A stretch of 64,000 bases of DNA, taken from assembly GCA_012519425.1 (NCBI GenBank), contig JAAYQF010000011.1, positions 10,658-74,657 on the forward strand. The letters are read 5' to 3'. Made by a program: the position numbers and the translations under genes. The notes under the pieces are model-generated. The model was not told where the DNA came from. It made no database searches and saw nothing but the letters and a program-made list of their open reading frames with translations. Every line of letters begins with the position of its first letter. The stretch's first letter is position 1. The DNA comes from Bacteroidales bacterium. Its GTDB lineage: Bacteria > Bacteroidota > Bacteroidia > Bacteroidales > Paludibacteraceae. Shown in pieces: positions 3,834 to 64,000 of the stretch.

Positions 3834-3848
3834 TTTCTTAAATAAATG

Positions 3849-4643: not shown

Positions 4644-4668
4644 AACGAAATAAGCGAACAAAAAAAAT

Positions 4669-5541
4669 ATGACTATAGCCGTTTTTGGAAACACATTTTC
4701 TCCTACAGTACTGGATATTTTGGATACGATTTTCAGCTATTTTAACCACACAGATGTGCAGTTAATAGTTGATCGTCAGTTGCTTGCATATTATCAAAAA
4801 AAATCCGTTCCACCCTCAAATTTGAAACATACAATTGATAACGATGATTTTCAGGCCGATTTTTCGTTAAGTGTTGGCGGTGACGGCACTTTTTTAAACA
4901 CGGCGGCGCGCATTGGTTCTAAAAATATACCAATCATGGGAATCAATACAGGTCGTTTGGGTTTTTTGACTGATGTTTCTGTGGATGAAATAGAAAAAGC
5001 TTTGGATGCGATTAAGCATCGTCAAATCAGTTATGAGGAGCGTACCTTGTTGAAAGTAGAAGTTTCGGATGGCAGCAAGATAGATTATCCCTATGTGCTG
5101 AATGATGTGGCAGTACTAAAACAAGAAAGTGCATCCATGATCAATGTCATTACTTATTTAAATGATGAAGCTGTACACGCGTATCACTCAGATGGTTTAA
5201 TTGTGTCCACTCCGACCGGATCAACGGCTTACTCCATGAGTGCGGGAGGACCCTTGTTGGTTCCGCAGACGCAGAATATTATACTCACTCCTGTAGCCTC
5301 ACATAGCCTTACGGTGCGTCCATTAGTCATTCCCGACGATTGGAAAATTGATTTGGAGGTGCGAAGCAGAAGCGGTAATTATCAGCTAACTTTAGACGGA
5401 CGGACAATGGTGTTGGAGCAGGATAAAAAAATCAGAATTTCTAAGGCTGAGTATAAGATTAGGGTAGCCAAACAATTGAATCATACTTTTTTTGATTCTT
5501 TGAGGAGTAAATTGATGTGGGGACTTGATAAACGCAATTAA
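4669..5541 (+). CDS. nadK: NAD kinase
   Basis: GGDGTFL, GINTGRLGFL, NDV, STPTGSTAYSMSAGGP. Confidence 0.95.
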   Translation: MTIAVFGNTFSPTVLDILDTIFSYFNHTDVQLIVDRQLLAYYQKKSVPPSNLKHTIDNDDFQADFSLSVGGDGTFLNTAARIGSKNIPIMGINTGRLGFLTDVSVDEIEKALDAIKHRQISYEERTLLKVEVSDGSKIDYPYVLNDVAVLKQESASMINVITYLNDEAVHAYHSDGLIVSTPTGSTAYSMSAGGPLLVPQTQNIILTPVASHSLTVRPLVIPDDWKIDLEVRSRSGNYQLTLDGRTMVLEQDKKIRISKAEYKIRVAKQLNHTFFDSLRSKLMWGLDKRN

Positions 5542-6387
5542 ATGGCTAACAAGGATATGAGCATTGTTCCGGGACCGATAGGGGTTTTTGATTCAGGCTA
5601 TGGTGGTTTGACGATTTTGGAAAAGATCAGAAATGAACTTCCTGAATACGATTATATCTATTTGGGTGATAATGCACGTACACCTTATGGTACACGGTCT
5701 TTTGACGTGGTCTATCAATATACTTTGGAGTCCGTGAAAAAACTATTTGATATGGGCTGTCATCTGGTGATACTGGGTTGTAATACCTCTTCAGCAAAAG
5801 CATTAAGATCTATACAACAACAAGATTTGCCTCTGATTAATAAAGGAAGGCGTGTGTTGGGCGTAATTCGACCTACTGTGGAGGTATTGGATCAGGTCAC
5901 TGTAACCAAGCATGTGGGGATGTTTGCTACGCCTGGTACCGTGAAGTCAGATTCTTATTTGTTGGAAATTCAAAAGCTCTTTCCGGATATCCGGCTAACA
6001 TCAGAGGCTTGTCCGATGTGGGTCCCGCTGATCGAAAACAATGAACATTTGTCGCCGGGTGCAGATTATTTTGTCAGGCAACACATAGATAATTTATTGA
6101 ACATAGATGCTGAAATCGACACAATTATCCTGGGATGTACTCATTATCCGCTCATTCTGCCTACTATTTTAAAGTTTTTGCCCAAGCATATCCGGGTTAT
6201 AACACAAGGTGAAATAGTGGCTAAAAGTTTAGGGACTTATCTGGATAACCATCCGGAGATGCGGGTAAAATGTACTACCAAAGGATCTGTTGTCTATTAT
6301 ACAACAGAAACAGTTGAAAAGTTTGCAAGTATGGCTTCGATTTTTCTGAAAGAAGAACACGTGTCAGCCATCAACATCCAATTATAA
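5542..6387 (+). CDS. murI: Glutamate racemase
   Basis: IGVFDSGYGG, catalytic CNT and ILGCTHYP. Confidence 0.96.
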   Translation: MANKDMSIVPGPIGVFDSGYGGLTILEKIRNELPEYDYIYLGDNARTPYGTRSFDVVYQYTLESVKKLFDMGCHLVILGCNTSSAKALRSIQQQDLPLINKGRRVLGVIRPTVEVLDQVTVTKHVGMFATPGTVKSDSYLLEIQKLFPDIRLTSEACPMWVPLIENNEHLSPGADYFVRQHIDNLLNIDAEIDTIILGCTHYPLILPTILKFLPKHIRVITQGEIVAKSLGTYLDNHPEMRVKCTTKGSVVYYTTETVEKFASMASIFLKEEHVSAINIQL

Positions 6388-6405
6388 ATTAAGTATTTAG
6401 TAGTA

Positions 6406-50791: not shown

Positions 50792-52031
50792 GCCCTTTTT
50801 GTTGGTTTTTGTTCTTTTTCTTGTACAGTTATCTGTTGGGCAGAACAATACTAATTCTCCTTATACCCGATACGGTTATGGAGAACTTGTTGATGTGAAT
50901 TCGGCAGAGCAGCGCGCCATGGGAGGTGTTGCACTTGGGTTAAGAAACAATTCCATGATCAATCCTGCAAATCCGGCTTCGTATAGTGTTGTAGATTCTA
51001 CATCCTTTATGTTTGATTTTGGTGTGAGTGGGTTGCTGTCCGCGTTTTCCGATGCCAGTGGGCGAATTGTAAGTTTTACTTCTAACATTGAATATATCAA
51101 TCTGCAGTTTCCCATAACAAAATGGTTGGGATTAAGCGCTGGTTTATTACCTTATTCATTTTCCGGGTATAACTACTACGATACCGATTCGATTGAAATG
51201 TTCAATCATACTTCGACATCAACTTATGCCAATTATTCCAGGAAGTACGTGGGAAGTGGGGCTATTAGTCAGATTTATACCGGATTGGGACTGAAATTGT
51301 TCGATCACATAGCTTTGGGCGTAAACGCCTATTATATGATGGGTGGTTCATCTAATAGCAGTTCGATCCTGTTTGACAACAAGGATTTTAGTTCGTCTTC
51401 TTCTACACAAGAAAATGTGATTGTGGTCAATAGTTTCAGATTTAGATATGGTTTGCAATTGTTTCATACTTTCAAGGAAAATCACGGGTTGACAATAGGT
51501 GGAATTTATGAACACAAAGCACCATTTGGGGGAGAGTTTCTGCAATATAATTATGGTATACCCGCTGATACTGTGTCGTATGATCACCATTTTGGATTAC
51601 CTACAACCTATGGCGTGGGGGTTAATTATGTGTTTAAAAACAAATTGACGTTGTCGGCAGACTATATGATGCAGAGATGGGGAGATGCTTTGTTTTTTGG
51701 CAAGACAGATAGTCTGACCAATAGAAACAAAATAGCTGTTGGAGCGGAATATATAATAAATCCGAGAGGAAACAAATATGTCGACAGGATGCGTTATCGT
51801 GCAGGCATCAACCTGCAAGAGTCGTATTTTAAAGTTGACGGTCAGGTTCCCCCGAAGAACTTCGGCATTAGTTTTGGCGTGGGGTTGCCTTTGCGTACAA
51901 CTAACACGATGTTAAATGCATCGTTTGAATATGGAAAAGTTGGAGACAAGACGCTTTTGAGACAAGATTATTTTAAATTTACCTTTAATGTTGTCTTCAA
52001 CGAAAATTGGTTTTTTAAGAGAAAATTATAA
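50775..52031 (+). CDS. FadL-like outer-membrane protein
   Basis: NSPYTRYGYGE, INPANPASY, terminal ENWFFKRK; conserved coaX-OMP-TPR-lptC cluster. Confidence 0.8.
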   Translation: MLKTIKPFLLVFVLFLVQLSVGQNNTNSPYTRYGYGELVDVNSAEQRAMGGVALGLRNNSMINPANPASYSVVDSTSFMFDFGVSGLLSAFSDASGRIVSFTSNIEYINLQFPITKWLGLSAGLLPYSFSGYNYYDTDSIEMFNHTSTSTYANYSRKYVGSGAISQIYTGLGLKLFDHIALGVNAYYMMGGSSNSSSILFDNKDFSSSSSTQENVIVVNSFRFRYGLQLFHTFKENHGLTIGGIYEHKAPFGGEFLQYNYGIPADTVSYDHHFGLPTTYGVGVNYVFKNKLTLSADYMMQRWGDALFFGKTDSLTNRNKIAVGAEYIINPRGNKYVDRMRYRAGINLQESYFKVDGQVPPKNFGISFGVGLPLRTTNTMLNASFEYGKVGDKTLLRQDYFKFTFNVVFNENWFFKRKL

Positions 52032-52052
52032 CATTAAGTAAAGATAGATTTT

Positions 52053-53471
52053 ATGAAAATTATGAAAAAATTAATTTTATTGTCGTTGAGTATAGTTGTT
52101 TTGACTAACTGTTATGCTCAAAGAAGGACAAGAAGAGCAGCTAAAGAAGAGGTGACCCCGGTAGAAGTTGTAACTCCTCAGGAGCCGGCAGCAGAAGAAC
52201 CCACTGGTGAGCCTGTCATTACAGAGGAGTGTTTGATAAACTTAAGTTTGTTTAATGAGTCTGCTAAAAATCAACAATATGCTGATGCATTGGATCCTTG
52301 GAATCAGGTGTTTGATAACTGCCCGAATGCCAACAGAGCTATTTACAGCCATGGACGTAATATATTACATTGGCTGTTGAGTCAGCAAACGGATGAGGCC
52401 AAATATCAGGAGGTCTTTGATAGACTGATGTTGATGTATGACAAACGCATACAGTATTTTGGAGATGATCCCAGATATTCTACACCTTGGATTAAAGGAT
52501 TAAAAGCCTTGGATTACATCGTGTTTGTCAAGAATGACGAATTGAAAGAGCCTGCCTATCAATGGTTAGAAGAAGCCATGGACGGATTGGGTGACGAAAC
52601 GGAAATAGAGGTGATTAGACAGTTTGTTATTTTGTCAGACAGACTCTATGCCAACGATAACGCACATGGTGATAAATACATTGCTGACTATTTAAAAGCC
52701 AATGACCTATTGGAATCTATCATTGAGAAAGTTCAGGATTCAGATTCAATACTTGCTGCTCAGGCAACGCAATATAAGAATGGATTGGACATTGTGTTCG
52801 CCGAAAGTGGGGCAGCCGATTGCGAAACATTGGATGGATTATACGAAGACAAGATAGCTGCTAATGAAGATGATTTGGGGTATTTGAATAAAATTATTTC
52901 TTTTTACAGAAGAGTTAGATGTGTGGAATCAAAAGTATATTTTGATGCTGCTGAAAAAGCACATAAAATTCAACCAACTGCCGAATCTGCAAGTGCATTA
53001 GCTGCTATGTCGTATAATCAGGAGGAATTTCAACAGGCGGTCAATTACTATGAGGATGCTACCAGATTAAGTGAGATTGACGAAGATAAAGCAGATTATC
53101 AATATAAAATTTCCCAGATCTATTACTCCAAAATAGGAGATTATCCTCGTACCAAGACTCATGCTCTAAATGCATTGGAATATGATTCGTCATTGGGTAG
53201 CGCTCACATGATTATTGGACTTGCCTATGCTGCCGCAAAAGGAATTTATGATGATCCGGTATTGTCTAAATCTGTGTTCTGGGTGGCTGTTGATAGATTG
53301 AACAAAGCCAAACAAGTAGATCCTTCTTTGGCAGAAGATGTGGATAAGCTGATCGCTACCTATGTTCGCCATTTCCCCTCCAAAGAAGATATTTTCTTTA
53401 AGCCTGAGCTTAGTAATGGAAAGTCTTTCTACGTGGGTGGCTGGATAGGAGAGACCACAATTTGCAGATAA
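52053..53471 (+). CDS. Tetratricopeptide-repeat protein
   Basis: Signal peptide, helical repeats, VFWVAVD...AKQVDP, GGWIGETT end. Confidence 0.8.
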   Translation: MKIMKKLILLSLSIVVLTNCYAQRRTRRAAKEEVTPVEVVTPQEPAAEEPTGEPVITEECLINLSLFNESAKNQQYADALDPWNQVFDNCPNANRAIYSHGRNILHWLLSQQTDEAKYQEVFDRLMLMYDKRIQYFGDDPRYSTPWIKGLKALDYIVFVKNDELKEPAYQWLEEAMDGLGDETEIEVIRQFVILSDRLYANDNAHGDKYIADYLKANDLLESIIEKVQDSDSILAAQATQYKNGLDIVFAESGAADCETLDGLYEDKIAANEDDLGYLNKIISFYRRVRCVESKVYFDAAEKAHKIQPTAESASALAAMSYNQEEFQQAVNYYEDATRLSEIDEDKADYQYKISQIYYSKIGDYPRTKTHALNALEYDSSLGSAHMIIGLAYAAAKGIYDDPVLSKSVFWVAVDRLNKAKQVDPSLAEDVDKLIATYVRHFPSKEDIFFKPELSNGKSFYVGGWIGETTICR

Positions 53472-53477
53472 TAAATC

Positions 53478-54068
53478 TTGAAGTATTTGCAGAAAAAATA
53501 TGATTATAAAAGCATCACAACCGCCTTTTCGGTGGTTGTTGTGTTTTTTTTACTTTTTTCATGCAATACTTCCGTAACTGAACAGATTGATTTGGAGTTA
53601 AGCTCCGGTGAAGTTCCACGTTTGCATACATCTGATGTTACAACGGTTATATCAGATTCGGGAATAACCCGATACAGAATATATACGCCAATATGGAACG
53701 TTTATGATGATATTTCGAAACCGTATTGGGAGTTTCCGGTTGGGGTGCATTTTGAACGCTTCGATGAAGATTTGACCGTTGACGCCAATGTCCATTGTGA
53801 ATATGCCAAGTTTCTTGAAAAAGAAAAAATCTGGGAGTTGAAGGGAAATGTCCGGGCTACCAATATCAAAGGTGAATTGTTTGAGACAGAGCAACTTTTT
53901 TGGAACCAGAGGACTGAAAAAATCTATTCGGATAGCTTGGTCACAATTACCCAGGAAGATTATATCATCAATGCGCAAGGCTTTGAATCGAATCAGCAGA
54001 TGACCAAGTATACCTGGAAGCAAACTCAGGGGATTTTTCCTGTAGAAGAAGAGGAAGAGCAAAATTAG
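53478..54068 (+). CDS. lptC: LPS export ABC transporter periplasmic protein LptC
   Basis: ISDSG, EFPVGVHFERF, ETEQLFWNQ...IYSD; TTG start. Confidence 0.88.
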   Translation: MKYLQKKYDYKSITTAFSVVVVFFLLFSCNTSVTEQIDLELSSGEVPRLHTSDVTTVISDSGITRYRIYTPIWNVYDDISKPYWEFPVGVHFERFDEDLTVDANVHCEYAKFLEKEKIWELKGNVRATNIKGELFETEQLFWNQRTEKIYSDSLVTITQEDYIINAQGFESNQQMTKYTWKQTQGIFPVEEEEEQN

Positions 54069-54127
54069 AAGTAAAGGTCTCCGGTATAATTCTTTTATTG
54101 GAGATTTTGACAAATTAGATAATCAAG

Positions 54128-56023
54128 GTGTTGCAGATGTTGAGAAATATCCGGATTTTTATGTTTTTACTGCTATCTCCGGTTTTACTGTCGGAAAACG
54201 ACCCTACATCCGTAGAAATCATACAATCTGTAAAGACCTGGCAAATCGTTGATAAGTTTGCTACTGCTGATTCTGTTGCTCCCGATACGGCACATTTAAA
54301 TTTTCAAAATGCCAACCACATCGATCGTTTCAGTATATCCAATGCTTATCGCGGAAATTTAGGTTCGCCTGTTCAGCCTAAAGTCTATTTTGACAGACCA
54401 CTGAAACACGATTTTATTTTTGCAGAGGCCTATTATCCATACATGGCTCAGGTTGAGTCAGCTACGTTTTATAATACTACCAAACCATTCACGAGTCTAT
54501 ACTATCTCAGCGGTGGAACTCATTATTACAAGGATGAACAGATCAAGTTTTTATTTTCAGCTAATGCCAATAAGAAGCTGAATCTTGGATTTACATTGGA
54601 TTATCTTTATGCGCGGGGCGAATACACAAACCTTGGAACTAAAAGATTTGCCGGTTCTGCTTTTGGGACTTACGACGGTGTTAAATATAAGGCAACCGGC
54701 TTTGCAAGTAGCAATAGCCTCAGCAATTACGAAAACGGAGGTATTTCAGATACTACCTACATCAATGGTCCCATAGTCTATCCTTCATATAATATTCCGG
54801 TGAACATTACAGGATATGCAAATTATATACACAATCAATTCTTTTACAATCATCAATATAATATTGGGATAACCAGGTTGATTGAGATTACCCCTGATTC
54901 TGTTGTGTCGGAATATGTGCCTGTTACGGTTTTTGGGCATACCGTTCGGTTGGATGATATGCGAAAGCGATACTACGAGCCTAATGTAGAAAAAGACTTC
55001 TACGAAAATACTTACCTTCCCTTTGCTTTTACAAATGATAGCGCAGCTTATTTTGCTGTCAAAAACACCTTGTCTGTTAGCATGGCTGAGGAGTTTAACA
55101 AATGGCTGAAATTTGGTTTGACGGCTTATGTGGAAAATGAAGTAGTCAGATACGGGGTAAAGGAAGACAGTACCTATATCCATAAAAATTATATGAATAA
55201 CAGAGTGGGGGGTATTTTGTCGAAAAATAAAGGAGATTTGTTGAAGTATAATTTTAGTGGAGAGTTGACATTTTTGGGACGCAACATTGGGGACCTGGTG
55301 TTGGATGCAAATCTGAACAGTAAATTCAATTTGCTGAAACAAAGCATCAATTTACAGGCATATGGATTTATGAAAAGTATCAAACCGTCTGTGTTTTACG
55401 ATTTTTATCACTCGAATCATTTCAAATGGGAGAACAGTTTTTCAAAATTGTACCATACACGCATAGGCGGTAAATTTGTCATTCCTACGCTTTATTTTAA
55501 TTTTGATGTGTCTGTAGAAAATTTAACTAATCCGGTATATTTTAATAAAAAGGCTTTACCAGATCAATATGATGGTAATGTTCAAATACTTGCGGGAAAT
55601 TTAAAGCAGGATTTCCATGTAGGTAGTTTTACTTTAGAAAATCAGGCGGTTTATCAATTGAGTTCTAATCAATCAGTGATACCCCTGCCGACTGTTGTCT
55701 TGTATCATAATTTGTATTATCATGGGCTTTGGTTCAAGGTTCTAAGCATGCAGATGGGTGTGGATGTACGGTATCATACTACTTACTACGCCCCTTCCTA
55801 TATGCCGGCAACCGGACAGTTTCATGTGCAGGATAGGATGAAAATTGGCAATTATCCTGTGATGAATGTATATCTGAATGCGCATCTGAAACGTACGAGA
55901 TTTTTCGTTCAGTATTATCATATAAATCAGTTGTTTATGAAAGGAAACTGTTATTCCATGCCTTATTATCCCATCAATCCGGCAACATTTAAGATAGGAT
56001 TGACATGGAATTTTTACGATTAA
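54128..56023 (+). CDS. Putative porin (Bacteroidota)
   Basis: YRGNLGSP, FYNTTKPF, GLTWNFYD C-terminus. Confidence 0.85.
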   Translation: MLQMLRNIRIFMFLLLSPVLLSENDPTSVEIIQSVKTWQIVDKFATADSVAPDTAHLNFQNANHIDRFSISNAYRGNLGSPVQPKVYFDRPLKHDFIFAEAYYPYMAQVESATFYNTTKPFTSLYYLSGGTHYYKDEQIKFLFSANANKKLNLGFTLDYLYARGEYTNLGTKRFAGSAFGTYDGVKYKATGFASSNSLSNYENGGISDTTYINGPIVYPSYNIPVNITGYANYIHNQFFYNHQYNIGITRLIEITPDSVVSEYVPVTVFGHTVRLDDMRKRYYEPNVEKDFYENTYLPFAFTNDSAAYFAVKNTLSVSMAEEFNKWLKFGLTAYVENEVVRYGVKEDSTYIHKNYMNNRVGGILSKNKGDLLKYNFSGELTFLGRNIGDLVLDANLNSKFNLLKQSINLQAYGFMKSIKPSVFYDFYHSNHFKWENSFSKLYHTRIGGKFVIPTLYFNFDVSVENLTNPVYFNKKALPDQYDGNVQILAGNLKQDFHVGSFTLENQAVYQLSSNQSVIPLPTVVLYHNLYYHGLWFKVLSMQMGVDVRYHTTYYAPSYMPATGQFHVQDRMKIGNYPVMNVYLNAHLKRTRFFVQYYHINQLFMKGNCYSMPYYPINPATFKIGLTWNFYD

Positions 56024-56166
56024 ATTAATTCATCGGGAATTTCAAAAAACAACTTAAAATAAATTATAACCATATGAAACAGCCATTTGAGAAAATTCTC
56101 AAACACAAGGAAATGATTAATGGCGTGTTCCATGTGACCTTAATGTAAAAAATAAAAAATAAACAC

Positions 56167-56970
56167 ATGAAAAAGAGAATTGCAATATTGTTTGTTGCAA
56201 GCGTTTTATTACTGATAATTTTGCTGTGGATGGGAGTTTCTTCCACAATCAGAGACTTGCCCGAAATTATTGAAGATGCCCGTTTGTCAGTTTTGATTGA
56301 ACCTGGTGAACATGGACTTGTGCGCGATAGCTCTCAAGCCTATGGTTTTCAATATGAGTTGATAAAAATATTTGCAGATTCGTTGGATGTGGAACTTTCA
56401 ATCATTCATTCGTCCGGGAAAGGAAATGACGTGCGCAGACTTCAAAAAGGCAAGGCGGACGTATGGGTAGCTCTGATGCCTGTCACAACCTGCTTTGAAC
56501 ATACGGTTGTTTGCCTGACACCCATTATTTCTACGAGGTTGATGTTGGTTCAGCCAAAGGCAGATGTTACTTCAAAAGTTCGCAAGCAATACGAATTAGA
56601 TGGAGACACCATTTGGGTACAGAAAAATTCTCCCTATATCGAAAGACTGAATGATCTTGCCGACGAAATAGCCTTTGATCCGGTGATCATTGAAATGCGG
56701 GCAAGCGGCTACGAAGAGATGGTGGATTTGGTCCAAAAAGGAGAGATCAGGTTTACCATTTGCCCCGAATATCTGACAGAACAATTCAAAACAAAGTATG
56801 ATCAGGTTGATTTCAGTCTACCCTTGAGTTTGAAGCATGATTTGTCCTGGTGTGTGAATGCGCATTCACCTTTGCTACAAGAGCGGTTGAATGAATTTTT
56901 ATATGCATTCAAAGAAACGAATGATTTCCAGGCACTATTAAAGAAGTATAATTATCAAGTTGAATTTTAA
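56167..56970 (+). CDS. Substrate-binding domain protein (MltF N-terminus-like)
   Basis: DLPEII, GFQYELIKIFA, PBP2 fold pattern; no transglycosylase domain. Confidence 0.7.
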   Translation: MKKRIAILFVASVLLLIILLWMGVSSTIRDLPEIIEDARLSVLIEPGEHGLVRDSSQAYGFQYELIKIFADSLDVELSIIHSSGKGNDVRRLQKGKADVWVALMPVTTCFEHTVVCLTPIISTRLMLVQPKADVTSKVRKQYELDGDTIWVQKNSPYIERLNDLADEIAFDPVIIEMRASGYEEMVDLVQKGEIRFTICPEYLTEQFKTKYDQVDFSLPLSLKHDLSWCVNAHSPLLQERLNEFLYAFKETNDFQALLKKYNYQVEF

Positions 56971-56982
56971 AATATATAGAAT

Positions 56983-57903
56983 ATGCCAGTAAATATTCCG
57001 GATTCGTTACCTGCAGTTGATTTGTTGAGGAAAGAGAATATTTTTGTTATGGATTCAAAGCGAGCATCCTCTCAGGATATTCGTCCCTTGAAAATCCTGA
57101 TATTGAATCTTATGCCTGTCAAGATAACTACAGAAACCGATTTGATTCGTTTGTTGTCTAACACGCCTTTGCAAATAGAGCTGGATTTTTTACAAATGGA
57201 AAGTCATACTTCGAAAAATACGCCCATTGAACATTTGATGACTTTCTATAAAACCTTTGATGTCATCAGGCAAAGCAATTATGACGGCATGATCATAACA
57301 GGCGCACCGGTTGAATTGTTACCTTTTGAGGAAGTCGATTATTGGGAAGAAATAAAAAGTATATTCGATTGGGCAAGACGTCATGTTACCTCTACACTTT
57401 ATATATGTTGGGCTGCACAAGCCGGTTTGTACCATTATTATGGAGTGCCGAAACATGAACTGCGCGAAAAACTGTTTGGCGTATTCAGGCATTATGTTCA
57501 CAATCCTTACAACAACCCTATTTTCAGAGGTTTTGATGATATGTTCTACGTGCCACACAGCAGATATACGGAGGTGCGCAAAGAGGACATATTGAAAGTA
57601 CCCGAACTGACCATCTTGTCGGAATCTCCTGATGCCGGTGTTTATATAGTGATGGGCAGGAACGGCCGTGAATTTTTCATTACCGGGCATTCCGAATATT
57701 CGCCTATGACACTCGACACTGAATATAAAAGGGATCTGTCCAAAGGATTGAAGATCAACATCCCACAAAATTATTATCAGGACGATGATGTTCGGTTAGC
57801 TCCCGTGGTCAGATGGAGAGGTCACGCAAACTTGCTGATAACCAACTGGCTGAACTATTTTGTATATCAAGAAACACCATATGATTTATCACAAATAAAA
57901 TGA
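56983..57903 (+). CDS. metA: Homoserine O-acyltransferase MetA family (probably acetyltransferase)
   Basis: [26 protein letters not shown]. Confidence 0.95.
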
Positions 57904-58355
57904 AAACATTACAAATTGGAGATCAAGCTCCGGAAATTTTAGGAATCAACCAGGATGGTCAGGAAATCAAATTGTCTGACTACGTCGGGAAAAAAGTTGT
58001 TTTGTATTTTTATCCGAAAGACAATACATCGGGATGTACGGCTCAAGCTTGTAACCTGAGAGATAACTATCAAGAGTTGAGGCAAGCCGGTTATGAGGTG
58101 ATAGGCGTGAGTGCAGACAGTCAAAAGTCACATCAGGGATTCATTGCCAAACACAATTTACCTTTTAACCTCATTGCCGATACAGACAAGAAGCTGTCCG
58201 CATTATTCGGTACCTGGGGCGAAAAATCCATGTATGGCAGAAAATACATGGGTATGTTCCGAACTACCTTTATCATCAACGAAAAAGGGGTGATTGAAAG
58301 AATTATTTTGCCCAAACAAATTAAAACCAAAGATCACGCAGCACAGATTTTATAA
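57900..58355 (+). CDS. bcp: Thioredoxin-dependent thiol peroxidase (BCP/PrxQ)
   Basis: [16 protein letters not shown]; ATGA overlap with metA. Confidence 0.95.
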
Positions 58356-58472: not shown

Positions 58473-61400
58473 ATGATTCAATTCTTTCAAGCTCCTTCGC
58501 AACAGGTTTACGCTGTACAGTCAGCAAGTGCTTTAACAACAACTGATATTCAAAAACTACAATGGCTTTTTGGTAATGCCCGTTTGATTGACTCACAAGA
58601 AATTAAAGGCGATTTTGTGGGTTTTTCACGGGAAATGATCACGCCATGGGGTAGTACAGCTACAGAAATTGCACACAACATTGGTATATGTGGTATCGAG
58701 CGCATAGAACTTTTTACTCCTTTATCTTTGTCTCAATCATTGATCAATGAGGAAGGGTATGACCCTTTGTTGGAACGTGTTCACAAAGGTTTGAATCAGG
58801 ATGTTTTTGAATTTGACAAACAACCGGACCCAATCATTTACATAGACGATATAGCTGCTTATAATGAGCAGGAAGGTCTGGCTTTGAGTGAAGATGAGGT
58901 AGAGTATCTGAATGAGGTCAGTAAAATTGTTGGAAGAAAATTAACGGATTCTGAGGTGTTCGGTTTTTCACAAGTTAACTCCGAGCATTGTCGTCATAAA
59001 ATATTCAATGGTCAATTTGTGATTGATGGGGAAGAAAAGGAATTTTCTCTTTTTAAACTGATACGTCAAACTTCTGAAGAAAACCCCAACCAAATAGTAT
59101 CTGCATACAAAGACAATGTGGCATTTATATCCGGGCCTTCCATTGAACAGTTTGCTCCTAAAACGGGCGACAAGCCTGATGTGTACACAACCAAGGAGAT
59201 AGAATCCGTTTTGTCCCTTAAGGCTGAAACACATAATTTCCCTACTACGGTGGAGCCCTTTAACGGTGGTGCAACGGGTAGCGGCGGCGAGATACGCGAC
59301 CGTATGGGTGGAGGTAAAGCATCTGTGCCCTTAGCCGGTATTTCTGTTTATATGACCTCTTATACCCGCAATTCATTAATTGCTGATCCCTATTTTAAAA
59401 CTAATATTAGAAAGCCTTGGGAAGCAGCCATTCAACCCAGAAAATGGTTATATCAAACCCCAGAGCAAATTTTGATCAAAGCTTCCAACGGAGCTTCGGA
59501 TTATGGAAACAAACACGGTCAGCCTTTAATTTGTGGTTCGCTGGTTACATTTGAGCATGAAGAGAACAACAAGCAATACGGATTTGATAAGGTGATCATG
59601 ATGGCGGGCGGAATCGGCTTTGCCAACAGTAGAGATGCCATGAAGGGTGAGCCTGAAGTTGGTGACAAGGTTGTGGTGCTTGGTGGTGATAATTATCGCA
59701 TTGGTATGGGTGGCGGTGCCGGATCGTCTGTTGATACCGGTCATTTTGATAATGAGGTGGAGTTAAATGCCATCCAACGCTCTAATCCTGAGTTGCAAAA
59801 GCGGGTGGCCAATGTGATACGTGCATTGGTTGAAGCTGAAAGAAATCCGGTGATTTCCATCCACGACCACGGAGCCGGCGGTCATCTCAATTGTTTGTCG
59901 GAGTTGGTTGAAACTACCGGTGGTAAAATTGATATGTCAAAATTGCCTATCGGAGATCCGACTTTAAGTGCCAAAGAGATCATTGCCAATGAAAGCCAGG
60001 AACGCATGGGCTTATTGGTAAAGCCGGAAGATTTGGATATGCTGCAAAAAATCGCAGATCGCGAACAAGCGCCGATGTATGTGGTAGGAGAAACTACCGG
60101 TGACATGCATTTCTCTTTCGAACAGGCTGATGGTCAGAAACCCATCGACTTGCAGTTGGAATACATGTTCGGTAAATCGCCCAAGACCGTTATGACTGAC
60201 GAGACCACAGAGGAAAGTTTCGCACCGGTTGCATGGAGTGATGATCAACTGCAAACTTATATTGAAAATGTTTTGCAGCTCGAATCGGTAGCTTGTAAAG
60301 ATTGGTTGACCAATAAGGTGGATCGTTCGGTTACCGGTAAGGTTGCCCGTCAGCAGTGCCTGGGAGAAATCCAACTGCCCTTAAGCGATTTGGGCGTTGT
60401 GGCACTTGATTATCGTGGAAAAGCCGGTGTGGCAACCGCTATTGGTCATGCTCCCATCGCAGCCATCATTGATGCGGAAGCAGGTTCGGTCCTGGCTGTT
60501 GCCGAGGCGCTGACCAATATTGTTTGGACACCCTTGAAATATGGCATCAAATCGGTTTCATTGAGTGCTAACTGGATGTGGCCCTGCAAAAATCCGGGTG
60601 AAGATGCACGCTTGTATCAAGCGGTTGAATCTTGCAGTCAGTTTGCACGCGCCTTAGAAATCAATATTCCTACAGGAAAAGATTCTCTTTCCATGACACA
60701 AAAGTATGGTGAAGATAAGGTTTTTTCTCCAGGAACAGTGATTATCACGGCAGTTGCCGAAGTGTCGGATGTGCAAAAAACAGTCAGTCCCGTCTTGGTA
60801 AATGATCCGGATACTTCCATTTATTATATTGATTTTTCATTTGATATACAAAAACTCGGCGGTTCGGCATTGGCACAGACCATGAATAAAATCGGATACG
60901 AAGTGCCGACTATCAAAGATCCCGAATACTTTAAATCTGCTTTTGCAGCCGTTCAGGAATTGGTTTCCAAAGAATTAGTGCTTGCGGGACATGATATCTC
61001 CGAAGGAGGAATGTTTACTGCCTTATTAGAGATGTGTTTTGCCAATACACAGGGTGGACTTTCAGTCAATTTGGATGATTTAAAAGAAAAATCTTTGATC
61101 GTTAATCTTTTCGCTGAAAATCCGGGTGTATTGATTCAGGTGAAAGACAAACAGGAAGTTGAAAAGATTCTGAATGCTCATGGTATTGGCTATGCCATTC
61201 TTGCGAAGCCGATAGCAGAAAGAAGGATAGACATTAACAAGAAAAAGCAAGCCTACAGTTTTTCTATTGATGCCTTGAGAGATTTATGGTACCGTTCTTC
61301 CTATTTGTTAGATAAAAAACAAAGCGGAGAAAAACACGCCTGGATGCGTTATCAGAATTATAAGAATCAACCCCTTAGCTTCAATTTCAAGAATGATTTT

Positions 61401-62201
61401 CAAGGTACTTTGTCCCAATTCGATTTAAGTTTCGAACCTAAACCAACAGGTATAAAAGCTGCCGTGATTCGCGAGAAGGGTTCAAGCGGAGAAAGGGAAC
61501 TTGCCTATGCGCTTTATTTAGCCGGTTTTGAGGTTAAAGATGTGCATATGACCGATTTGGTGTCGGGGCGCGAAACCCTTGAAGACGTTCAAATGATTGT
61601 GTTCAGCGGCGGTTCTTCCAATGCCGACGTATTTGGTTCCGGCAAAGGATGGGCAGGAAGATTTTTATACAATGAAAAAGCGAAGAAAGCATTGGATGCA
61701 TTCTACAAAAGAACGGATACCTTGAGTTTCGGTGTAGGAGACGGTTGCAGCCTGATGCTCAGACTTGGTTTGATCACTCCGAATGGTGATGCTGTACCTG
61801 AAATTTTACCGAATGATTCAGCTAAATATGAATCGGCCTTTGTGGGTGTTGCCATTCCTGAAAACCAATCAATTATGTTAAGTAGCTTGTCGAACAGCCA
61901 ATTAGGAGCCTGGATATCCCATGATCAAGGAAAATTTAAATTCCCCAAAACGGTTCATGCCTGGCAAGTGGTCGCTAAATATGCATACGAGGAATATCCT
62001 GCCAATCCCAACGGTTCGGAAGATGCCGTTGCGGGGATTTGTTCAGCAGACGGACGCCATTTGGCAGTTATGATCCATATTGAACGTGGGCTATTCCCGT
62101 GGCAGTGGGCACATTACCCGGCAAACAGGAAAAAAACTGATCAAATTACCCCTTGGGTGGAAGCGTTTGTAAATGCCCGCAAGTGGATCGAAAAGCATTG
62201 A
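58473..62201 (+). CDS. purL: Phosphoribosylformylglycinamidine synthase (large PurL) with degenerate glutaminase domain
   Basis: NSEHCRH, KAETHNFP, HDHGAGG, GKDSLSM intact; GATase nucleophile reads GVGDG; -7 box TAACTTTG at 58445-58452. Confidence 0.95.
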   Translation: MIQFFQAPSQQVYAVQSASALTTTDIQKLQWLFGNARLIDSQEIKGDFVGFSREMITPWGSTATEIAHNIGICGIERIELFTPLSLSQSLINEEGYDPLLERVHKGLNQDVFEFDKQPDPIIYIDDIAAYNEQEGLALSEDEVEYLNEVSKIVGRKLTDSEVFGFSQVNSEHCRHKIFNGQFVIDGEEKEFSLFKLIRQTSEENPNQIVSAYKDNVAFISGPSIEQFAPKTGDKPDVYTTKEIESVLSLKAETHNFPTTVEPFNGGATGSGGEIRDRMGGGKASVPLAGISVYMTSYTRNSLIADPYFKTNIRKPWEAAIQPRKWLYQTPEQILIKASNGASDYGNKHGQPLICGSLVTFEHEENNKQYGFDKVIMMAGGIGFANSRDAMKGEPEVGDKVVVLGGDNYRIGMGGGAGSSVDTGHFDNEVELNAIQRSNPELQKRVANVIRALVEAERNPVISIHDHGAGGHLNCLSELVETTGGKIDMSKLPIGDPTLSAKEIIANESQERMGLLVKPEDLDMLQKIADREQAPMYVVGETTGDMHFSFEQADGQKPIDLQLEYMFGKSPKTVMTDETTEESFAPVAWSDDQLQTYIENVLQLESVACKDWLTNKVDRSVTGKVARQQCLGEIQLPLSDLGVVALDYRGKAGVATAIGHAPIAAIIDAEAGSVLAVAEALTNIVWTPLKYGIKSVSLSANWMWPCKNPGEDARLYQAVESCSQFARALEINIPTGKDSLSMTQKYGEDKVFSPGTVIITAVAEVSDVQKTVSPVLVNDPDTSIYYIDFSFDIQKLGGSALAQTMNKIGYEVPTIKDPEYFKSAFAAVQELVSKELVLAGHDISEGGMFTALLEMCFANTQGGLSVNLDDLKEKSLIVNLFAENPGVLIQVKDKQEVEKILNAHGIGYAILAKPIAERRIDINKKKQAYSFSIDALRDLWYRSSYLLDKKQSGEKHAWMRYQNYKNQPLSFNFKNDFQGTLSQFDLSFEPKPTGIKAAVIREKGSSGERELAYALYLAGFEVKDVHMTDLVSGRETLEDVQMIVFSGGSSNADVFGSGKGWAGRFLYNEKAKKALDAFYKRTDTLSFGVGDGCSLMLRLGLITPNGDAVPEILPNDSAKYESAFVGVAIPENQSIMLSSLSNSQLGAWISHDQGKFKFPKTVHAWQVVAKYAYEEYPANPNGSEDAVAGICSADGRHLAVMIHIERGLFPWQWAHYPANRKKTDQITPWVEAFVNARKWIEKH

Positions 62202-62354: not shown

Positions 62355-63350
62355 ATGGAACATACTGTCGATATTCGTGAATTAAACGAAAAAATTGAGA
62401 AGCAAAGTTATTTTGTAGATTCCCTGATGATGGGAATGGATAAGGTCATTGTGGGTCAGCGTCACTTGGTTGAGTCCTTATTAATCGGTTTACTTTCAGA
62501 TGGTCATATTTTATTGGAAGGTGTTCCGGGTTTGGCAAAAACTCTGGCTATCAAGACTCTGTCGGATTTAATTAAAGGAGACTTTAGCAGGGTTCAGTTT
62601 ACACCGGACCTTTTGCCGGCAGACCTTGTAGGGACAATGATTTATAGCCAGCATAGAGAAGAGTTTAACATTCGCAAAGGTCCGATCTTCGCTAATTTAG
62701 TTTTAGCAGATGAGATCAACCGTGCTCCTGCCAAGGTGCAAAGCGCTTTGCTTGAAGCAATGCAGGAACGTCAGGTTACCATAGGCGATGAAACCTACAA
62801 ATTGCCTGAGCCTTTCCTGGTAATGGCAACACAGAATCCCATTGAACAGGAAGGAACATATCCCTTACCTGAAGCTCAGGTTGACCGTTTCATGCTGAAG
62901 GTGGTGATCAGCTACCCAAAAAGGGAAGAAGAAAAGCTTATCATTCGTCAGAATCTGAAAAAAGATAAACCCAAGGTGGACGCCATTCTTTCTCCAAAAG
63001 AAATTATGGAAGCACGCGATGTAGTTCGCCAGGTGTATATTGATGAAAAAATTGAAAAGTACATCATCGATATAGTTTTTGCCACTCGTTTTCCGGAAGA
63101 TTACGGACTGACTTCGCTCAAAGATATGATTGCCTTTGGAGCTTCCCCCCGTGCGTCCATCAATCTTGCTTTGGCAGCAAGGGCTTATGCATTTATAAAA
63201 CGGCGTGGATATGTAATTCCCGAAGATGTACGTGCAGTATGTTATGATGTGTTGCGTCATCGCATTGGCTTGAGTTACGAAGCAGAAGCCAACAACATGA
63301 CCTCTGATGAAATCATTACCGAAATTTTGAATTCTGTAGAAGTTCCCTAA
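62355..63350 (+). CDS. moxR: MoxR family AAA+ ATPase
   Basis: GVPGLAKT, QFTPDLLPAD, ADEINRAP, ATQNPIEQEGTY; -7 box TACATTTG at 62310-62317. Confidence 0.95.
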   Translation: MEHTVDIRELNEKIEKQSYFVDSLMMGMDKVIVGQRHLVESLLIGLLSDGHILLEGVPGLAKTLAIKTLSDLIKGDFSRVQFTPDLLPADLVGTMIYSQHREEFNIRKGPIFANLVLADEINRAPAKVQSALLEAMQERQVTIGDETYKLPEPFLVMATQNPIEQEGTYPLPEAQVDRFMLKVVISYPKREEEKLIIRQNLKKDKPKVDAILSPKEIMEARDVVRQVYIDEKIEKYIIDIVFATRFPEDYGLTSLKDMIAFGASPRASINLALAARAYAFIKRRGYVIPEDVRAVCYDVLRHRIGLSYEAEANNMTSDEIITEILNSVEVP

Positions 63351-63357
63351 AAAATAG

Positions 63358-64000
63358 ATGGAAACTAGTGAAATCATAAAGAAAGTAAGAAAGATTGAAA
63401 TCAAAACACGTGGTCTTTCCAATCACATTTTTGCCGGAGAATATCATTCAGCTTTCAAAGGAAGGGGTATGACCTTTTCAGAAGTTCGTGAATATCAATA
63501 CGGTGATGATGTGCGATCAATCGATTGGAACGTGACTGCGCGTTTTGCACATCCTTATATCAAAGTATTTGAGGAAGAAAGAGAGCTGACGGTGATGCTG
63601 TTGATAGATGTTTCGGGAAGCCGTGTTTTTGGTACGGTGTCTCAATATAAAATGGATATTTTCACAGAAGTGGCCGCCGTGCTTGCTTTCTCGACCATTC
63701 ACAACAATGATAAAGTAGGTGTGATATTTTTTTCCGATAAAATTGAGAAATTCATACCACCCAAAAAAGGACGCAAGCACGTTTTGCACATCATTCGGGA
63801 AATGATTGATTTCAAGCCTGAAAGTAAGCAAACTGATATAGCCGAAGCCTTGCGTTATTTTACCAATGCCATTAAAAAGAGGTCGACTGCATTTATCATT
63901 TCAGATTTTATAGATGATGATTTTGAGAAAGAACTTACCATTGCCAATAAAAAACATGATGTGGTAGCTTTGCAAGTGTATGATATCAGGGAAACAGAAA
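63358..64000 (+). CDS. DUF58 domain protein (3' partial)
   Basis: METSEIIKKVRKIEIKTR, FKGRGMTFSEVREY, IDWNVTAR, EEERELT; follows moxR as in Bat-type operons. Confidence 0.92.
   Translation, partial: METSEIIKKVRKIEIKTRGLSNHIFAGEYHSAFKGRGMTFSEVREYQYGDDVRSIDWNVTARFAHPYIKVFEEERELTVMLLIDVSGSRVFGTVSQYKMDIFTEVAAVLAFSTIHNNDKVGVIFFSDKIEKFIPPKKGRKHVLHIIREMIDFKPESKQTDIAEALRYFTNAIKKRSTAFIISDFIDDDFEKELTIANKKHDVVALQVYDIRETE

What the first reader, a model, noticed from the sequence alone, without database searches (positions are those of the whole stretch)
61450..62201. PurL glutaminase site is systematically dismantled while the synthetase is intact
Seen: the nucleophile elbow reads FGVGDGCSL (GGA codon at 61737-61739, Gly1089) where class I GATase domains of PurL have G(I/V)CNGxQ. 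Other glutamine-site motifs are also changed: GGSSNADV for GGFS..DV, SHDQGK for AHGEG, GSSGE for the Asn-containing GTNG/PGxN motif, and MIHIER for MPHxER. The His and Glu of the triad, the reading frame and all synthetase motifs are kept. Established: without the catalytic Cys no glutamyl-thioester forms, and such enzymes can still use free NH3. Inference: an ammonia-dependent FGAM synthase with a structural pseudo-glutaminase domain, plausible in an ammonium-rich habitat, or one fed by a separate PurQ.
Basis: partly seen in the sequence, partly recalled or inferred. Interest (0 to 1): 0.72.

Follow-up and report, generated by a model that had tools for sequence, protein, structure and literature searches.

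The report
PurL with a dead glutaminase domain
A common anaerobic-digester bacterium carries an otherwise healthy purine-synthesis enzyme (large PurL) whose glutamine-splitting site has been taken apart yet kept under selection, so it most likely uses free ammonia instead of glutamine, which I did not find described for this enzyme.

Summary
The ORF at 58473-62201 is a full-length large PurL of 1242 aa. The nucleophile Cys (Salmonella C1135) is Gly1089, codon GGA at 61737-61739. Four other family-invariant glutaminase motifs are also altered. His, Glu and the frame are kept.

This is not an error or a pseudogene. The identical protein occurs on at least 22 independently assembled contigs. Sister alleles 86-97 % identical keep every change. 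dN/dS of the dead domain is 0.07-0.11, against 0.04 for the synthetase.

The Cys is present in 79/79 other Bacteroidales species and in 144/144 informative cluster representatives.

It also hits the PurS-like N-terminal domain, including the Salmonella R80 equivalent, and positions beside the ammonia channel. Both channel gates are retained.

The closest relative, L007, keeps the Cys but already shares many of the changes, so decay began before the Cys was lost. Two unrelated metagenomic fragments lost the Cys independently, with changes at the same sites.

Best explanation: an ammonia-dependent FGAM synthetase with a retained pseudo-glutaminase domain, analogous to CPS I. No assay was done, and the genome could not be searched for purQ or a second purL.

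The parts
58473..62201 (+). purL: large (single-chain) FGAM synthase, 1242 aa, intact frame
   Evidence: ORF. (Pfam FGAR-AT_N, linker, AIRS_C x2, FGAR-AT_PurM_N-like, GATase_5). (NCBIfam PRK05297 1414 bits against cut-off 783). (E 1e-199 to Salmonella PurL, 2e-204 to human).
58473..58802 (+). PurS-like N-terminal domain (aa 1-110), with excess divergence
   Evidence: 9 of 63 near-invariant columns changed; identity to canonical PurLs is 44.5 % against 54.0 % expected from synthetase divergence.
58623..58628 (+). Phe51-Ser52 replacing the family-invariant Pro-Arg. By position, Ser52 corresponds to Salmonella R80, the residue that anchors the N-terminal domain to the catalytic loop
   Evidence: consensus VGPRREMITPWSTNAVEI against VGFSREMITPWGSTATEI. 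The HMMER alignment starts at query 55 = St T83, so the R80 assignment rests on gapless extension plus the invariant family Arg in that column. Role of R80: PMC7124931.
58650..58664 (+). Gly60-Ser-Thr-Ala-Thr64 replacing invariant S-T-N-x-V. Thr62 aligns with Salmonella K90 at the N-terminal/glutaminase domain interface
59013..61427 (+). FGAM synthetase (PurM-type) domains, aa 181-985. 305 of 318 near-invariant columns kept
   Evidence: dN/dS 0.04. Channel end-gate residues H254 (St H296) and T268 (St T310), plus Q435 (human Q485), are kept.
59340..59345 (+). Ile290-Ser291 replacing invariant Thr-Ala. They align with Salmonella L332-V333, and V333 is an ammonia-channel wall residue
   Evidence: PMC7124931 section 8.
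59502..59516 (+). Tyr344 and His348 replacing invariant Phe and Phe. They align with Salmonella F376 and F380 on helix alpha12, which lines the ammonia channel around N378
59772..59774 (+). Ile434 replacing invariant Val. It aligns with Salmonella V470 in the catalytic (C-) loop that contacts the N-terminal domain. Conservative change
61455..62189 (+). Class I GATase-like domain (aa 995-1239): fold kept, catalytic nucleophile lost
   Evidence: GATase_5 2.4e-73, profile 3-260 of 260. (pLDDT 87.5; TM 0.82-0.86 to PurL glutaminase domains). (omega 0.07-0.11).
61479..61493 (+). GSSGE: Ser1005 replaces the omega-loop Asn (St N1051 / human N1074), which holds the oxyanion strand and forms part of the channel mouth gate
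   Evidence: PMC7124931. PMC13013826.
61608..61631 (+). GGSSNADV, the oxyanion strand (St 1092-1099). Ser1048 replaces Phe (St F1094 / human F1117, glutamine entry gate 2). Ala1051 replaces Ser
   Evidence: This is the lowest-confidence block of the predicted structure.
61728..61754 (+). FGVGDGCSL, the former nucleophile elbow. Gly1089 (61737-61739) replaces Cys, Asp1090 replaces Asn, Ser1093 replaces Gln
61917..61934 (+). SHDQGK replacing the invariant (A/S)HGEGK. Asp1151 replaces Gly and Gln1152 replaces Glu
62070..62087 (+). MIHIER. Triad His1202 and Glu1204 and the gate Arg1205 (St R1263) are kept. Ile1201 replaces the invariant Pro

Best explanation
This is the working FGAM synthetase (purine step 4) of an uncultured Paludibacter-like Bacteroidales bacterium from anaerobic digesters. 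Its C-terminal class I amidotransferase domain can no longer hydrolyse glutamine.

Shown here:
- The nucleophile Cys is replaced by Gly, and no alternative small-X-Nu-X-small elbow exists around it.
- The oxyanion-strand / entry-gate Phe, the omega-loop Asn and the Gln of CNGCQ are replaced.
- The N-terminal-domain Arg at the Salmonella R80 position is gone. In Salmonella, R80 anchors the N-terminal domain to the catalytic loop in the pathway that relays 'FGAR bound' to the glutaminase site.
- The synthetase half and both ends of the ammonia channel are conserved. These are the D617-R1205 salt bridge, H254/T268 and Q435.
- The whole gene, including the dead domain, is under purifying selection.

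Inferred:
- The enzyme takes free NH3/NH4+ from the cytoplasm of a cell living at tens to hundreds of mM ammonium.
- Entry is most likely through the emptied and widened glutamine pocket, where C>G, F>S, Q>S and N>S shrink side chains and two new Asp residues appear at 1090 and 1151. From there the ammonia would pass down the retained channel to the iminophosphate intermediate.
- The domain is kept because it buries a large interface with the synthetase, stabilises it, and forms the channel mouth.

The loss was stepwise. Coupling and glutamine-binding residues changed first, in the common ancestor with the Cys-bearing sister L007. The Cys, its neighbouring Asn, the Gly of HGEG and the Pro of MPHxER changed afterwards. 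This is the order expected when selection for glutamine use is relaxed.
For: Identity and intactness.

Motif losses against solved structures. Residue roles come from PMC7124931 and PMC13013826.

Uniqueness of the Cys loss:
- 79/79 species keep the Cys.
- About 70 metagenome loci keep it, apart from the clade itself.
- 144/144 informative cluster representatives keep it.
- 118/118 further homologues keep it.

Not an artefact. The exact protein sits in 53 collection blocks and on at least 22 contigs from MEGAHIT, SPAdes and JGI assemblies. Alleles at 86-97 % identity carry the same motifs.

Selection:
- The glutaminase-like domain has omega 0.107, 0.081, 0.098 and 0.074, against 0.040-0.044 for the synthetase, in four pairs within the clade.
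- Canonical control pairs have 0.036-0.041 against 0.041-0.048.
- Constraint is therefore about 2-fold relaxed but far from neutral.

Domain-specific excess divergence: glutaminase domain 62.0 % against 72.6 % expected, N-terminal domain 44.5 % against 54.0 % expected. Both lie beyond every canonical species.

Phylogeny: the Cys-less clade is monophyletic in 100/100 replicates and sister to L007 in 100/100. L007 shares F1048S, S1051A, Q1093S, E1152Q, R52S, F344Y and F348H but keeps the Cys.

Independent Cys-less fragments P0032 and P0116 changed at the same sites, F1048 and G1151.

Fold retained.

Habitat: a cluster member comes from MAG ADurb.Bin174, and ADurb bins are anaerobic-digester sludge.

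Precedent: CPS I is ammonia-specific, with its catalytic Cys replaced in a retained glutaminase-like domain. Frog CPS I keeps the triad yet cannot use glutamine (PMC4655335).
Against: - There is no biochemical data of any kind.
- From my own memory, unverified here: canonical E. coli large PurL uses NH3 very poorly (Km near 1 M, Schendel et al. 1989). A Cys-less enzyme would therefore need real adaptation, and I can only point to candidate changes beside the channel.
- The rest of the genome could not be searched, so a separate glutaminase partner or a second purL is not excluded.
- The triad His and Glu and the second Cys (C1092) are kept. This could hint at residual chemistry, although the His-Glu-Arg motif also makes the inter-domain salt bridge.
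- Some of the 'lost' residues are not universally essential. Parabacteroides-type PurLs that keep the Cys have Gln or Cys in place of the omega-loop Asn.
- Several of the synthetase-side changes are conservative (V>I, M>L, F>Y).
- The habitat link rests on one MAG name plus my recollection of JGI sample types.
Confidence: 0.62

Rival explanations
1. The large PurL is fed by a separate glutaminase encoded elsewhere in the genome, either a stand-alone PurQ or another class I amidotransferase subunit. That partner would dock on the enzyme, so the pathway would remain glutamine-dependent.
For: Three-protein PurL/PurQ/PurS systems exist in Gram-positives and archaea (PMC3261824; PDB 3d54). The channel gates are conserved in the query. 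The genome beyond the window could not be searched.
Against: - The fused dead domain occupies the docking site that PurQ uses on small PurL. It is retained and folded.
- The N-terminal (PurS-like) domain that mediates coupling is itself degraded at the R80 and K90 equivalents.
- Genomes with large PurL are expected to lack purQ and purS (PMC3261824).
- No GATase gene lies in the 64 kb window or the 10 kb flanks of related contigs.
Confidence: 0.1
2. A second, canonical purL elsewhere in the genome does the metabolic job. This copy is then a paralogue that is either decaying or recruited to another, non-catalytic role, as in the herpesvirus FGAM-synthase-like tegument proteins.
For: Pseudo-FGARATs with non-metabolic roles exist in herpesviruses (PMC7605207). 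The protein hits TIGR01739 weakly. It scores just under the TIGR01735 cut-off, 1064.9 against 1123.
Against: - Synthetase-domain omega is 0.04, identical to canonical PurLs.
- 305 of 318 near-invariant synthetase columns are kept.
- PRK05297 scores 1414 bits against a cut-off of 783.
- The phylogeny places the gene among Paludibacter-like PurLs rather than as a divergent paralogue.
- The TIGR01739 score of 316 is far below its cut-off of 716.
Confidence: 0.07
3. The domain still liberates ammonia from glutamine or another amide donor using non-canonical chemistry. Candidates are Cys1092, Asp1090 or Ser1093 acting with the retained His1202/Glu1204.
For: His and Glu of the triad and Cys1092 are conserved across the whole Cys-less clade. 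Domain omega of about 0.1 shows it still matters.
Against: - Cys1092 is ancestral in all canonical enzymes (GxCNGCQ), so it is not a new nucleophile. The sister L007 has lost it.
- No residue near position 1089 sits in a small-X-Nu-X-small elbow (sequence).
- The Gln of CNGCQ, the oxyanion-strand Phe and the HGEG motif are all changed.
- The independent Cys-less fragments carry different residues at 1089/1090 (G-N, S-G), which argues against a specific new catalytic solution.
Confidence: 0.08
4. The changes are sequencing or assembly errors, or a chimeric contig.
For: None found.
Against: - The 3729 bp gene sequence is identical in six independently assembled contigs from different projects and assemblers.
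- The same motif state appears in alleles differing at 59-63 residues and in an 86 %-identical homologue.
- The changes are multi-nucleotide and spread over more than 30 codons.
Confidence: 0.01

Closest known systems
Large PurL / FGAM synthase (EC 6.3.5.3) of Salmonella (PDB 1T3T), E. coli and human (PDB 9N9W)
   Same: - Same four-part architecture: N-terminal domain, linker, duplicated PurM-type synthetase, C-terminal GATase_5.
- 32-41 % identity in the C-terminal domain with TM 0.82-0.86.
- Both channel gates (D-R salt bridge, His/Thr) and the triad His and Glu are conserved.
   Different: - The nucleophile Cys is Gly.
- The oxyanion / gate-2 Phe is Ser.
- The omega-loop Asn is Ser.
- The Gln of CNGCQ is Ser.
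- HGEG is HDQG.
- The residue at the R80 position in the N-terminal domain is Ser.
- It therefore cannot run the thioester mechanism that defines the glutamine-hydrolysing enzyme.
Carbamoyl phosphate synthetase I (ammonia-specific CPS of ureotelic vertebrates)
   Same: - An amidotransferase whose fused glutaminase-like domain lost the catalytic Cys but is retained, so the enzyme takes external ammonia.
- There is a lineage that keeps the triad yet has already lost glutamine use (frog CPS I), which parallels L007 here (PMC4655335).
   Different: - A different synthetase fold (ATP-grasp against PurM) and a different pathway.
- It is eukaryotic and arose by gene duplication with a glutamine-using paralogue kept.
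- Cys is replaced by Ser rather than Gly.
- Ammonia dependence is proven for CPS I and only inferred here.
Small PurL acting alone (PurL without PurQ/PurS) and other NH3-dependent versions of amidotransferase reactions (NadE, AsnA)
   Same: The same chemistry (FGAR + ATP + NH3) is carried out by a synthetase without a working glutaminase.
   Different: Here the glutaminase and PurS-like modules are still fused and under selection, not absent.
Herpesvirus FGAM-synthase-like tegument proteins (vGAT / vFGARAT, TIGR01739)
   Same: They are PurL homologues that lack glutaminase catalytic residues, i.e. pseudoenzymes.
   Different: The viral proteins have no purine-synthesis role and a degenerate synthetase. 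Here the synthetase is fully conserved, the gene is chromosomal and bacterial, and the TIGR01739 score (316) is far below its cut-off (716).

Membership tests
Large PurL (phosphoribosylformylglycinamidine synthase, NCBIfam NF003672/PRK05297; TIGR01735) | Full-length match above the curated cut-off | tested here: met
   PRK05297 scores 1414 bits against cut-off 783, covering 8-1240. Note that TIGR01735 scores 1064.9, just below its cut-off of 1123.05.
Large PurL | Domain order: FGAR-AT_N, linker, PurM-like N/AIRS_C x2, GATase_5 | tested here: met
Large PurL | Conserved synthetase core and ammonia-channel gates (St H296, T310, D657, R1263) | tested here: met
   H254, T268, D617 and R1205 are kept. 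305 of 318 near-invariant columns are kept.
Large PurL | Glutamine-dependent FGAM synthesis (EC 6.3.5.3) | not testable with these tools
   Needs an enzyme assay. The sequence predicts it is lost.
Class I (triad) glutamine amidotransferase domain | Nucleophile-elbow Cys (G-x-C-x-G) | tested here: not met
   Gly1089 lies opposite St C1135 / human C1158.
Class I (triad) glutamine amidotransferase domain | Triad His and Glu | tested here: met
   His1202 and Glu1204 in MIHIER.
Class I (triad) glutamine amidotransferase domain | Oxyanion strand GGF and the Gln of the C-x-G-x-Q motif | tested here: not met
   GGS replaces GGF, and CNGCQ reads GDGCS.
Class I (triad) glutamine amidotransferase domain | Flavodoxin-like GATase fold | tested here: met
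   GATase_5 covers 3-260 of 260 at E 2.4e-73. AlphaFold pLDDT 87.5, Foldseek TM 0.82-0.86.
Ammonia-dependent synthetase with retained pseudo-glutaminase domain (CPS I type) | Catalytic Cys replaced while the domain is retained under purifying selection | tested here: met
   Omega 0.07-0.11 within the Cys-less clade. The state is fixed across alleles 86-100 % identical.
Ammonia-dependent synthetase with retained pseudo-glutaminase domain (CPS I type) | Uses free NH3 and not glutamine | not testable with these tools
   Needs kinetics with NH4Cl against glutamine.
Herpesvirus v-FGAM-synthase (TIGR01739) | Score above the family cut-off | tested here: not met
   316.5 bits against cut-off 716.1. 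The context is a bacterial housekeeping chromosome.
Three-protein FGAR amidotransferase (smPurL + PurQ + PurS) | Separate purQ and purS genes | not testable with these tools
   None in the 64 kb window or the fetched flanks.

The most novel reading that the evidence does not exclude
The dead glutaminase domain is not just scaffolding. It may have been remodelled into an ammonium-capture vestibule.

The basis for this reading:
- The entry-gate Phe and the nucleophile are replaced by small residues.
- Two new acidic residues (Asp1090, Asp1151) sit beside the retained His1202.
- Positions beside the channel wall are changed (S291, Y344, H348).

Together these would recruit NH4+, deprotonate it, and pass NH3 down the old channel. 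That would give a dedicated high-affinity ammonia-dependent FGAM synthetase.

The same solution may have evolved repeatedly in Bacteroidales of ammonium-rich anaerobic habitats, given the convergent changes at F1048, C1089 and G1151 in independent lineages.
Probability: 0.3. Interest if true: 0.75.

Novelty: new variant of a known kind. Interest (0 to 1): 0.6.

Why it matters
Large PurL is a textbook model for allosteric coupling and transient ammonia tunnelling. Its catalytic Cys is treated as universal. An archaeal survey reports it fully conserved (PMC3261824), and here it is present in 144/144 diverse representatives.

A natural, selected, abundant lineage that has discarded glutamine hydrolysis is useful in three ways.
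- It gives an evolutionary 'knock-out series': canonical enzyme, then the Cys-bearing intermediate L007, then the Cys-less clade. The series shows which residues exist only for coupling. They turn out to include sites picked out by MD and cryo-EM work: the R80 position, N1051 and F1094, plus neighbours of the V333 and alpha12 channel wall.
- It is a bacterial counterpart of the CPS III to CPS I transition.
- It is a possible marker of adaptation of nitrogen metabolism to high-ammonium environments such as digesters.

It also matters for annotation, because such genes are labelled EC 6.3.5.3 (glutamine-hydrolysing) automatically.

Tried and rejected
- Sequencing error or chimera: rejected.
- Pseudogene or decaying copy: rejected. 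The frame is intact and omega is 0.04-0.11.
- Parallel loss in other amidotransferases: not testable. Pfam annotation of about 40 window ORFs found no other GATase gene, only an unrelated DJ-1/PfpI protein at 1414-1956.
- Riboswitch or RNA regulator upstream of purL: no Rfam hit at gathering threshold and no tRNA anywhere in the window. The promoter and terminator scan was uninformative.
- Finding the organism's own genome among GTDB species representatives: the best hit was only 76 % identical. Neither a second purL nor purQ could therefore be sought.
- The search for homologous proteins timed out for the full-length protein and for P0116 and P0032. A 117-aa query around the P0116 motif worked but found no further Cys-less relatives.
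- Literature: searches for a natural Cys-less or ammonia-dependent cellular PurL found nothing. JGI sample numbers and 'ADurb.Bin174' are not in the paper library.
- Cys1092 as a substitute nucleophile: rejected as unlikely. It is ancestral in every canonical enzyme and is lost in L007.
- dN/dS against L007 or canonical species: synonymous sites are saturated, so only amino-acid relative-rate comparisons were used at that depth.
Full report
**1. What is there**

The finding lies in the last fifth of a 3729-bp ORF, 58473-62201 on the + strand, encoding 1242 aa. Pfam finds the complete large-PurL architecture: FGAR-AT_N, linker, PurM-like N and AIRS_C twice, and GATase_5 over profile positions 3-260 of 260. 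NCBIfam PRK05297 (phosphoribosylformylglycinamidine synthase) scores 1414 bits against a cut-off of 783. The older TIGR01735 model scores 1064.9, just under its 1123 cut-off. The best solved relatives are human FGAM synthase (E 2e-204) and Salmonella PurL (E 9e-199).

The neighbourhood is ordinary Bacteroidales housekeeping chromosome. It holds hisG, pantothenate kinase, lptC, a porin, homoserine O-succinyltransferase and a peroxiredoxin upstream of purL, then the MoxR/BatA-D operon downstream. Elsewhere in the window are pheT, uvrA, the rml genes and others. No other glutamine amidotransferase gene is present in the 64 kb.

**2.

Codon 1089 is GGA at 61737-61739, and the local peptide is T-L-S-F-G-V-G-D-G-C-S-L. 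In gap-free HMMER alignments, Gly1089 lies opposite Salmonella C1135 and human C1158 in GVCNGCQ. The other motifs align as follows:

| Query | Canonical counterpart |
|---|---|
| GSSGE | REQGVNS / REEGSNG |
| GGSSNADV | GGFSYGDV |
| SHDQGK | SHGEG |
| MIHIER | MPHPER |

**3. It is far outside family variation**

I fetched PurL loci from 80 GTDB species representatives of Bacteroidales. In 79 of them the motifs read G[VT]NG[DE]R (Parabacteroides type GCQCER), GGFSNSDV, G[IV]CNGCQ, HGEG and MPH[PL]ER.

An exhaustive HMMER scan of 1.84 billion cluster representatives returned 150 best hits, down to 35 % identity. All 144 that cover the column have Cys. A further 118 of 118 and 118 of 120 homologues from two word-index searches have Cys.

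At columns at least 97 % conserved in the other species, the query deviates at 13 of 97 in the glutaminase domain, 9 of 63 in the N-terminal domain and 13 of 318 in the synthetase. Typical species deviate at 0-4, 0-3 and 0-6 respectively.

Relative to what synthetase divergence predicts, identity to canonical PurLs is 10.6 points too low in the glutaminase domain and 9.5 points too low in the N-terminal domain. Both values lie beyond every one of 76 canonical species, whose per-sequence residuals have SDs of 1.7 and 2.1 points.

**4. It is not an artefact and not a dying gene**

The exact 1242-aa protein is indexed in 53 blocks of the assembly collection. It was read on 22 contigs from JGI and ENA projects built with different assemblers, one of them over 1 Mb. 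Six fetched copies are identical over all 3729 bp, although their flanks differ.

Its 90 % cluster holds 39 members. These include OQB31499.1 from MAG 'Bacteroidetes bacterium ADurb.Bin174' and several 'Paludibacter sp.' MAG proteins. Full-length members differ at 4-63 residues, none of them at the altered motifs. A metagenome scan added an 86 %-identical homologue, L093, with the same state plus one further hit in the oxyanion strand: GGSSNAHV.

Nei-Gojobori dN/dS within this clade:

| Pair | Glutaminase-like domain | Synthetase |
|---|---|---|
| window / L087 | 0.107 | 0.043 |
| window / L089 | 0.081 | 0.042 |
| L087 / L089 | 0.098 | 0.044 |
| window / L093 | 0.074 | 0.040 |
| canonical L009 / L013 | 0.036 | 0.048 |
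| canonical L010 / L014 | 0.041 | 0.041 |

The dead domain is therefore about two-fold relaxed but still strongly constrained. The synthetase is as constrained as in any canonical PurL.

AlphaFold2 on the domain gives pLDDT 87.5 and pTM 0.88. The weakest block falls exactly on the oxyanion strand. Foldseek matches the glutaminase domains of human and Salmonella PurL at TM 0.82-0.86.

**5. The dismantling covers the coupling machinery, not only the glutamine site**

I mapped the deviant near-invariant positions onto Salmonella numbering through the HMMER alignments. I then read the residue roles in the MD/crystallography paper on StPurL (PMC7124931) and the 2026 cryo-EM paper on human FGAMS (PMC13013826).

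Changed residues:
- C1135 (nucleophile) is Gly1089, and N1136 is Asp1090.
- Q1139 is Ser1093.
- F1094 is Ser1048. This corresponds to human F1117, which is part of the oxyanion loop and of glutamine entry 'gate 2'.
- N1051 is Ser1005. This corresponds to human N1074, the omega-loop residue that latches the oxyanion strand and is part of the channel mouth gate.
- G1197 and E1198 of HGEG are Asp1151 and Gln1152.
- The Pro of MPHxER is Ile1201.
- In the N-terminal domain, the invariant Pro-Arg is Phe51-Ser52. Ser52 falls at the Salmonella R80 position, the residue that anchors the domain to the catalytic loop. This assignment rests on gapless extension three residues beyond the aligned region plus the invariant family Arg in that column.
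- Thr62 lies at the K90 position, which is part of the interface with glutaminase residues 1096-1100.
- On the synthetase side, Ile290-Ser291 align with L332-V333. V333 is a channel-wall residue, and the V333I mutation constricts the tunnel.
- Tyr344 and His348 align with F376 and F380, which flank N378 on channel helix alpha12.
- Ile434 aligns with V470 in the C-loop's hydrophobic contact with the N-terminal domain.

Retained residues:
- Triad His1202 and Glu1204.
- The mouth-gate salt bridge Arg1205-Asp617 (St R1263-D657; human gate 3).
- The exit gate His254/Thr268 (St H296/T310).
- Gln435 (human Q485, gate 4).

In short, the parts needed to admit, activate and hydrolyse glutamine are changed. 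The parts that form and gate the tunnel into the synthetase site are kept.

Two caveats apply. Several synthetase-side changes are conservative. The omega-loop Asn is also absent from Cys-bearing Parabacteroides-type enzymes, so no single substitution other than the Cys is decisive.

**6. Order of events**

A neighbour-joining tree on synthetase columns only gives three results:
- The Cys-less sequences form a clade in 100 of 100 bootstrap replicates.
- L007, an uncultured Paludibacter MAG 76 % identical to the query, is their sister in 100 of 100.
- Both nest among Paludibacter-like PurLs.

L007 keeps the nucleophile Cys, N1090, G1151 and P1201. It already shares F1048S, S1051A, Q1093S, E1152Q, D1020E, the R52S and 60-64 changes in the N-terminal domain, and T290I, F344Y, F348H and V434I. 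It shows the same excess divergence of the glutaminase and N-terminal domains.

So relaxation, or remodelling, began in the common ancestor, and the Cys fell later. This mirrors frog CPS I, which keeps its triad yet cannot use glutamine (PMC4655335).

**7. Recurrence**

Two short metagenomic fragments also lack the Cys: P0032 (GIGNGCQ) and P0116 (GISGGCQ), from JGI 3300042600 and 3300042622. They are about 77 % identical to each other and to canonical Parabacteroides-like PurLs, and about 65 % identical to the query. They therefore represent at least one independent loss.

They changed at the same otherwise invariant sites: F1048 to S or V, and G1151 to R or S. They are single low-coverage contigs, so I treat them as tentative.

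**8. Mechanism**

Shown: without the Cys, no gamma-glutamyl thioester can form. No neighbouring residue sits in a nucleophile-elbow context. Cys1092 is ancestral and is lost in L007.

Established knowledge: amidotransferase synthetase domains accept free NH3, small PurL does so without PurQ, and CPS I is the classic case of an ammonia-specific enzyme with a retained dead glutaminase domain.

Inferred: this PurL is an NH3-dependent FGAM synthetase. The domain is kept for stability, since the glutaminase-synthetase interface is extensive and the two domains appear to unfold together (PMC3815217), and as the mouth of the tunnel. The shrinking of pocket and gate residues, together with two new Asp residues, may turn the old pocket into the ammonia entrance.

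The habitat fits. ADurb bins come from anaerobic-digester sludge (PMC8092238). From my own knowledge, digesters hold roughly 35-350 mM total ammonia.

Against this, and again from memory, canonical E. coli PurL has a very high Km for NH3. Adaptation would therefore be required, and it is not demonstrated.

**9. What could not be done**

The organism's genome is not among the searchable species representatives; the best hit was 76 % identical. I therefore could not test for purQ/purS, a second purL, or parallel Cys loss in other amidotransferases. No literature on a natural Cys-less cellular PurL was found in ten searches, and an archaeal survey reports the Cys as fully conserved.

**10. Verdict**

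It is plausible but unproven in its functional claim of ammonia dependence.

It is a new variant of a known kind. The principle is known from CPS I, but I found no description of it for PurL, and here it comes with an evolutionary intermediate and a convergent second lineage.

Noticed in passing
window 51500-58000, compared with L001 and L005: Strain-level mosaicism. purL and everything downstream are 99.4-100 % identical between independently assembled contigs. All 103 mismatches of L001 cluster in 51.5-58 kb, over the unknown 472-aa protein, LptC, Porin_10, SBP_bac_3 and HTS. L005 drops to 92.5 % identity upstream of about 56.1 kb. This looks like recombination tracts over envelope genes.
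   Followed up: partly
L007 (CAYPYZ010000041.1, uncultured Paludibacter MAG), locus 3001-6648: This is the closest relative. It keeps the nucleophile Cys but reads GICNGLS, GGSSNADV, SHGQGK and MPHIER. It shows even more deviations at near-invariant columns than the query: 15, 11 and 23 in the glutaminase, N-terminal and synthetase domains. It may already be glutaminase-impaired. The contig ends at residue 1220.
   Followed up: partly
L171 (JGI 3300042622) 23-1171; L172 (JGI 3300042600) 55-825: Two further Cys-less PurL C-terminal fragments, GISGGCQ and GIGNGCQ, from a Parabacteroides-like lineage. They carry parallel changes at the oxyanion-strand Phe and the Gly of HGEG. Both are single short contigs, and no close relatives were found.
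   Followed up: partly
L027, L032, L062, L157, L162, L164-L167, L170: Parabacteroides/Butyricimonas-type PurLs that keep the Cys read GCQCER, GSQCER or GTQCER where other Bacteroidales have G(V/T)NG(D/E)R. The omega-loop Asn (St N1051), described as a key signalling residue, is therefore naturally replaced in apparently functional enzymes.
   Followed up: no
L130, L131: Two metagenomic PurLs read WTANGEGK instead of W(V/I)AHGEGK. The otherwise invariant His before GEG is Asn, with the Cys kept.
   Followed up: no
window 6406-8865 (+): A single 819-aa ORF fuses Mur ligase middle and C-terminal domains (MurF-like) to a complete alanine racemase.
   Followed up: no
window 62355-64000 and L001 13883-22145: Immediately downstream of purL lies a MoxR (AAA_3) / DUF58 / BatA / BatB / TPR / BatD cluster, which is the Bacteroides aerotolerance-type operon.
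   Followed up: no
window 1-64000: There are no tRNA genes and no Rfam family at gathering threshold in 64 kb. Cumulative GC skew rises almost monotonically, so most genes lie on the + strand.
   Followed up: no
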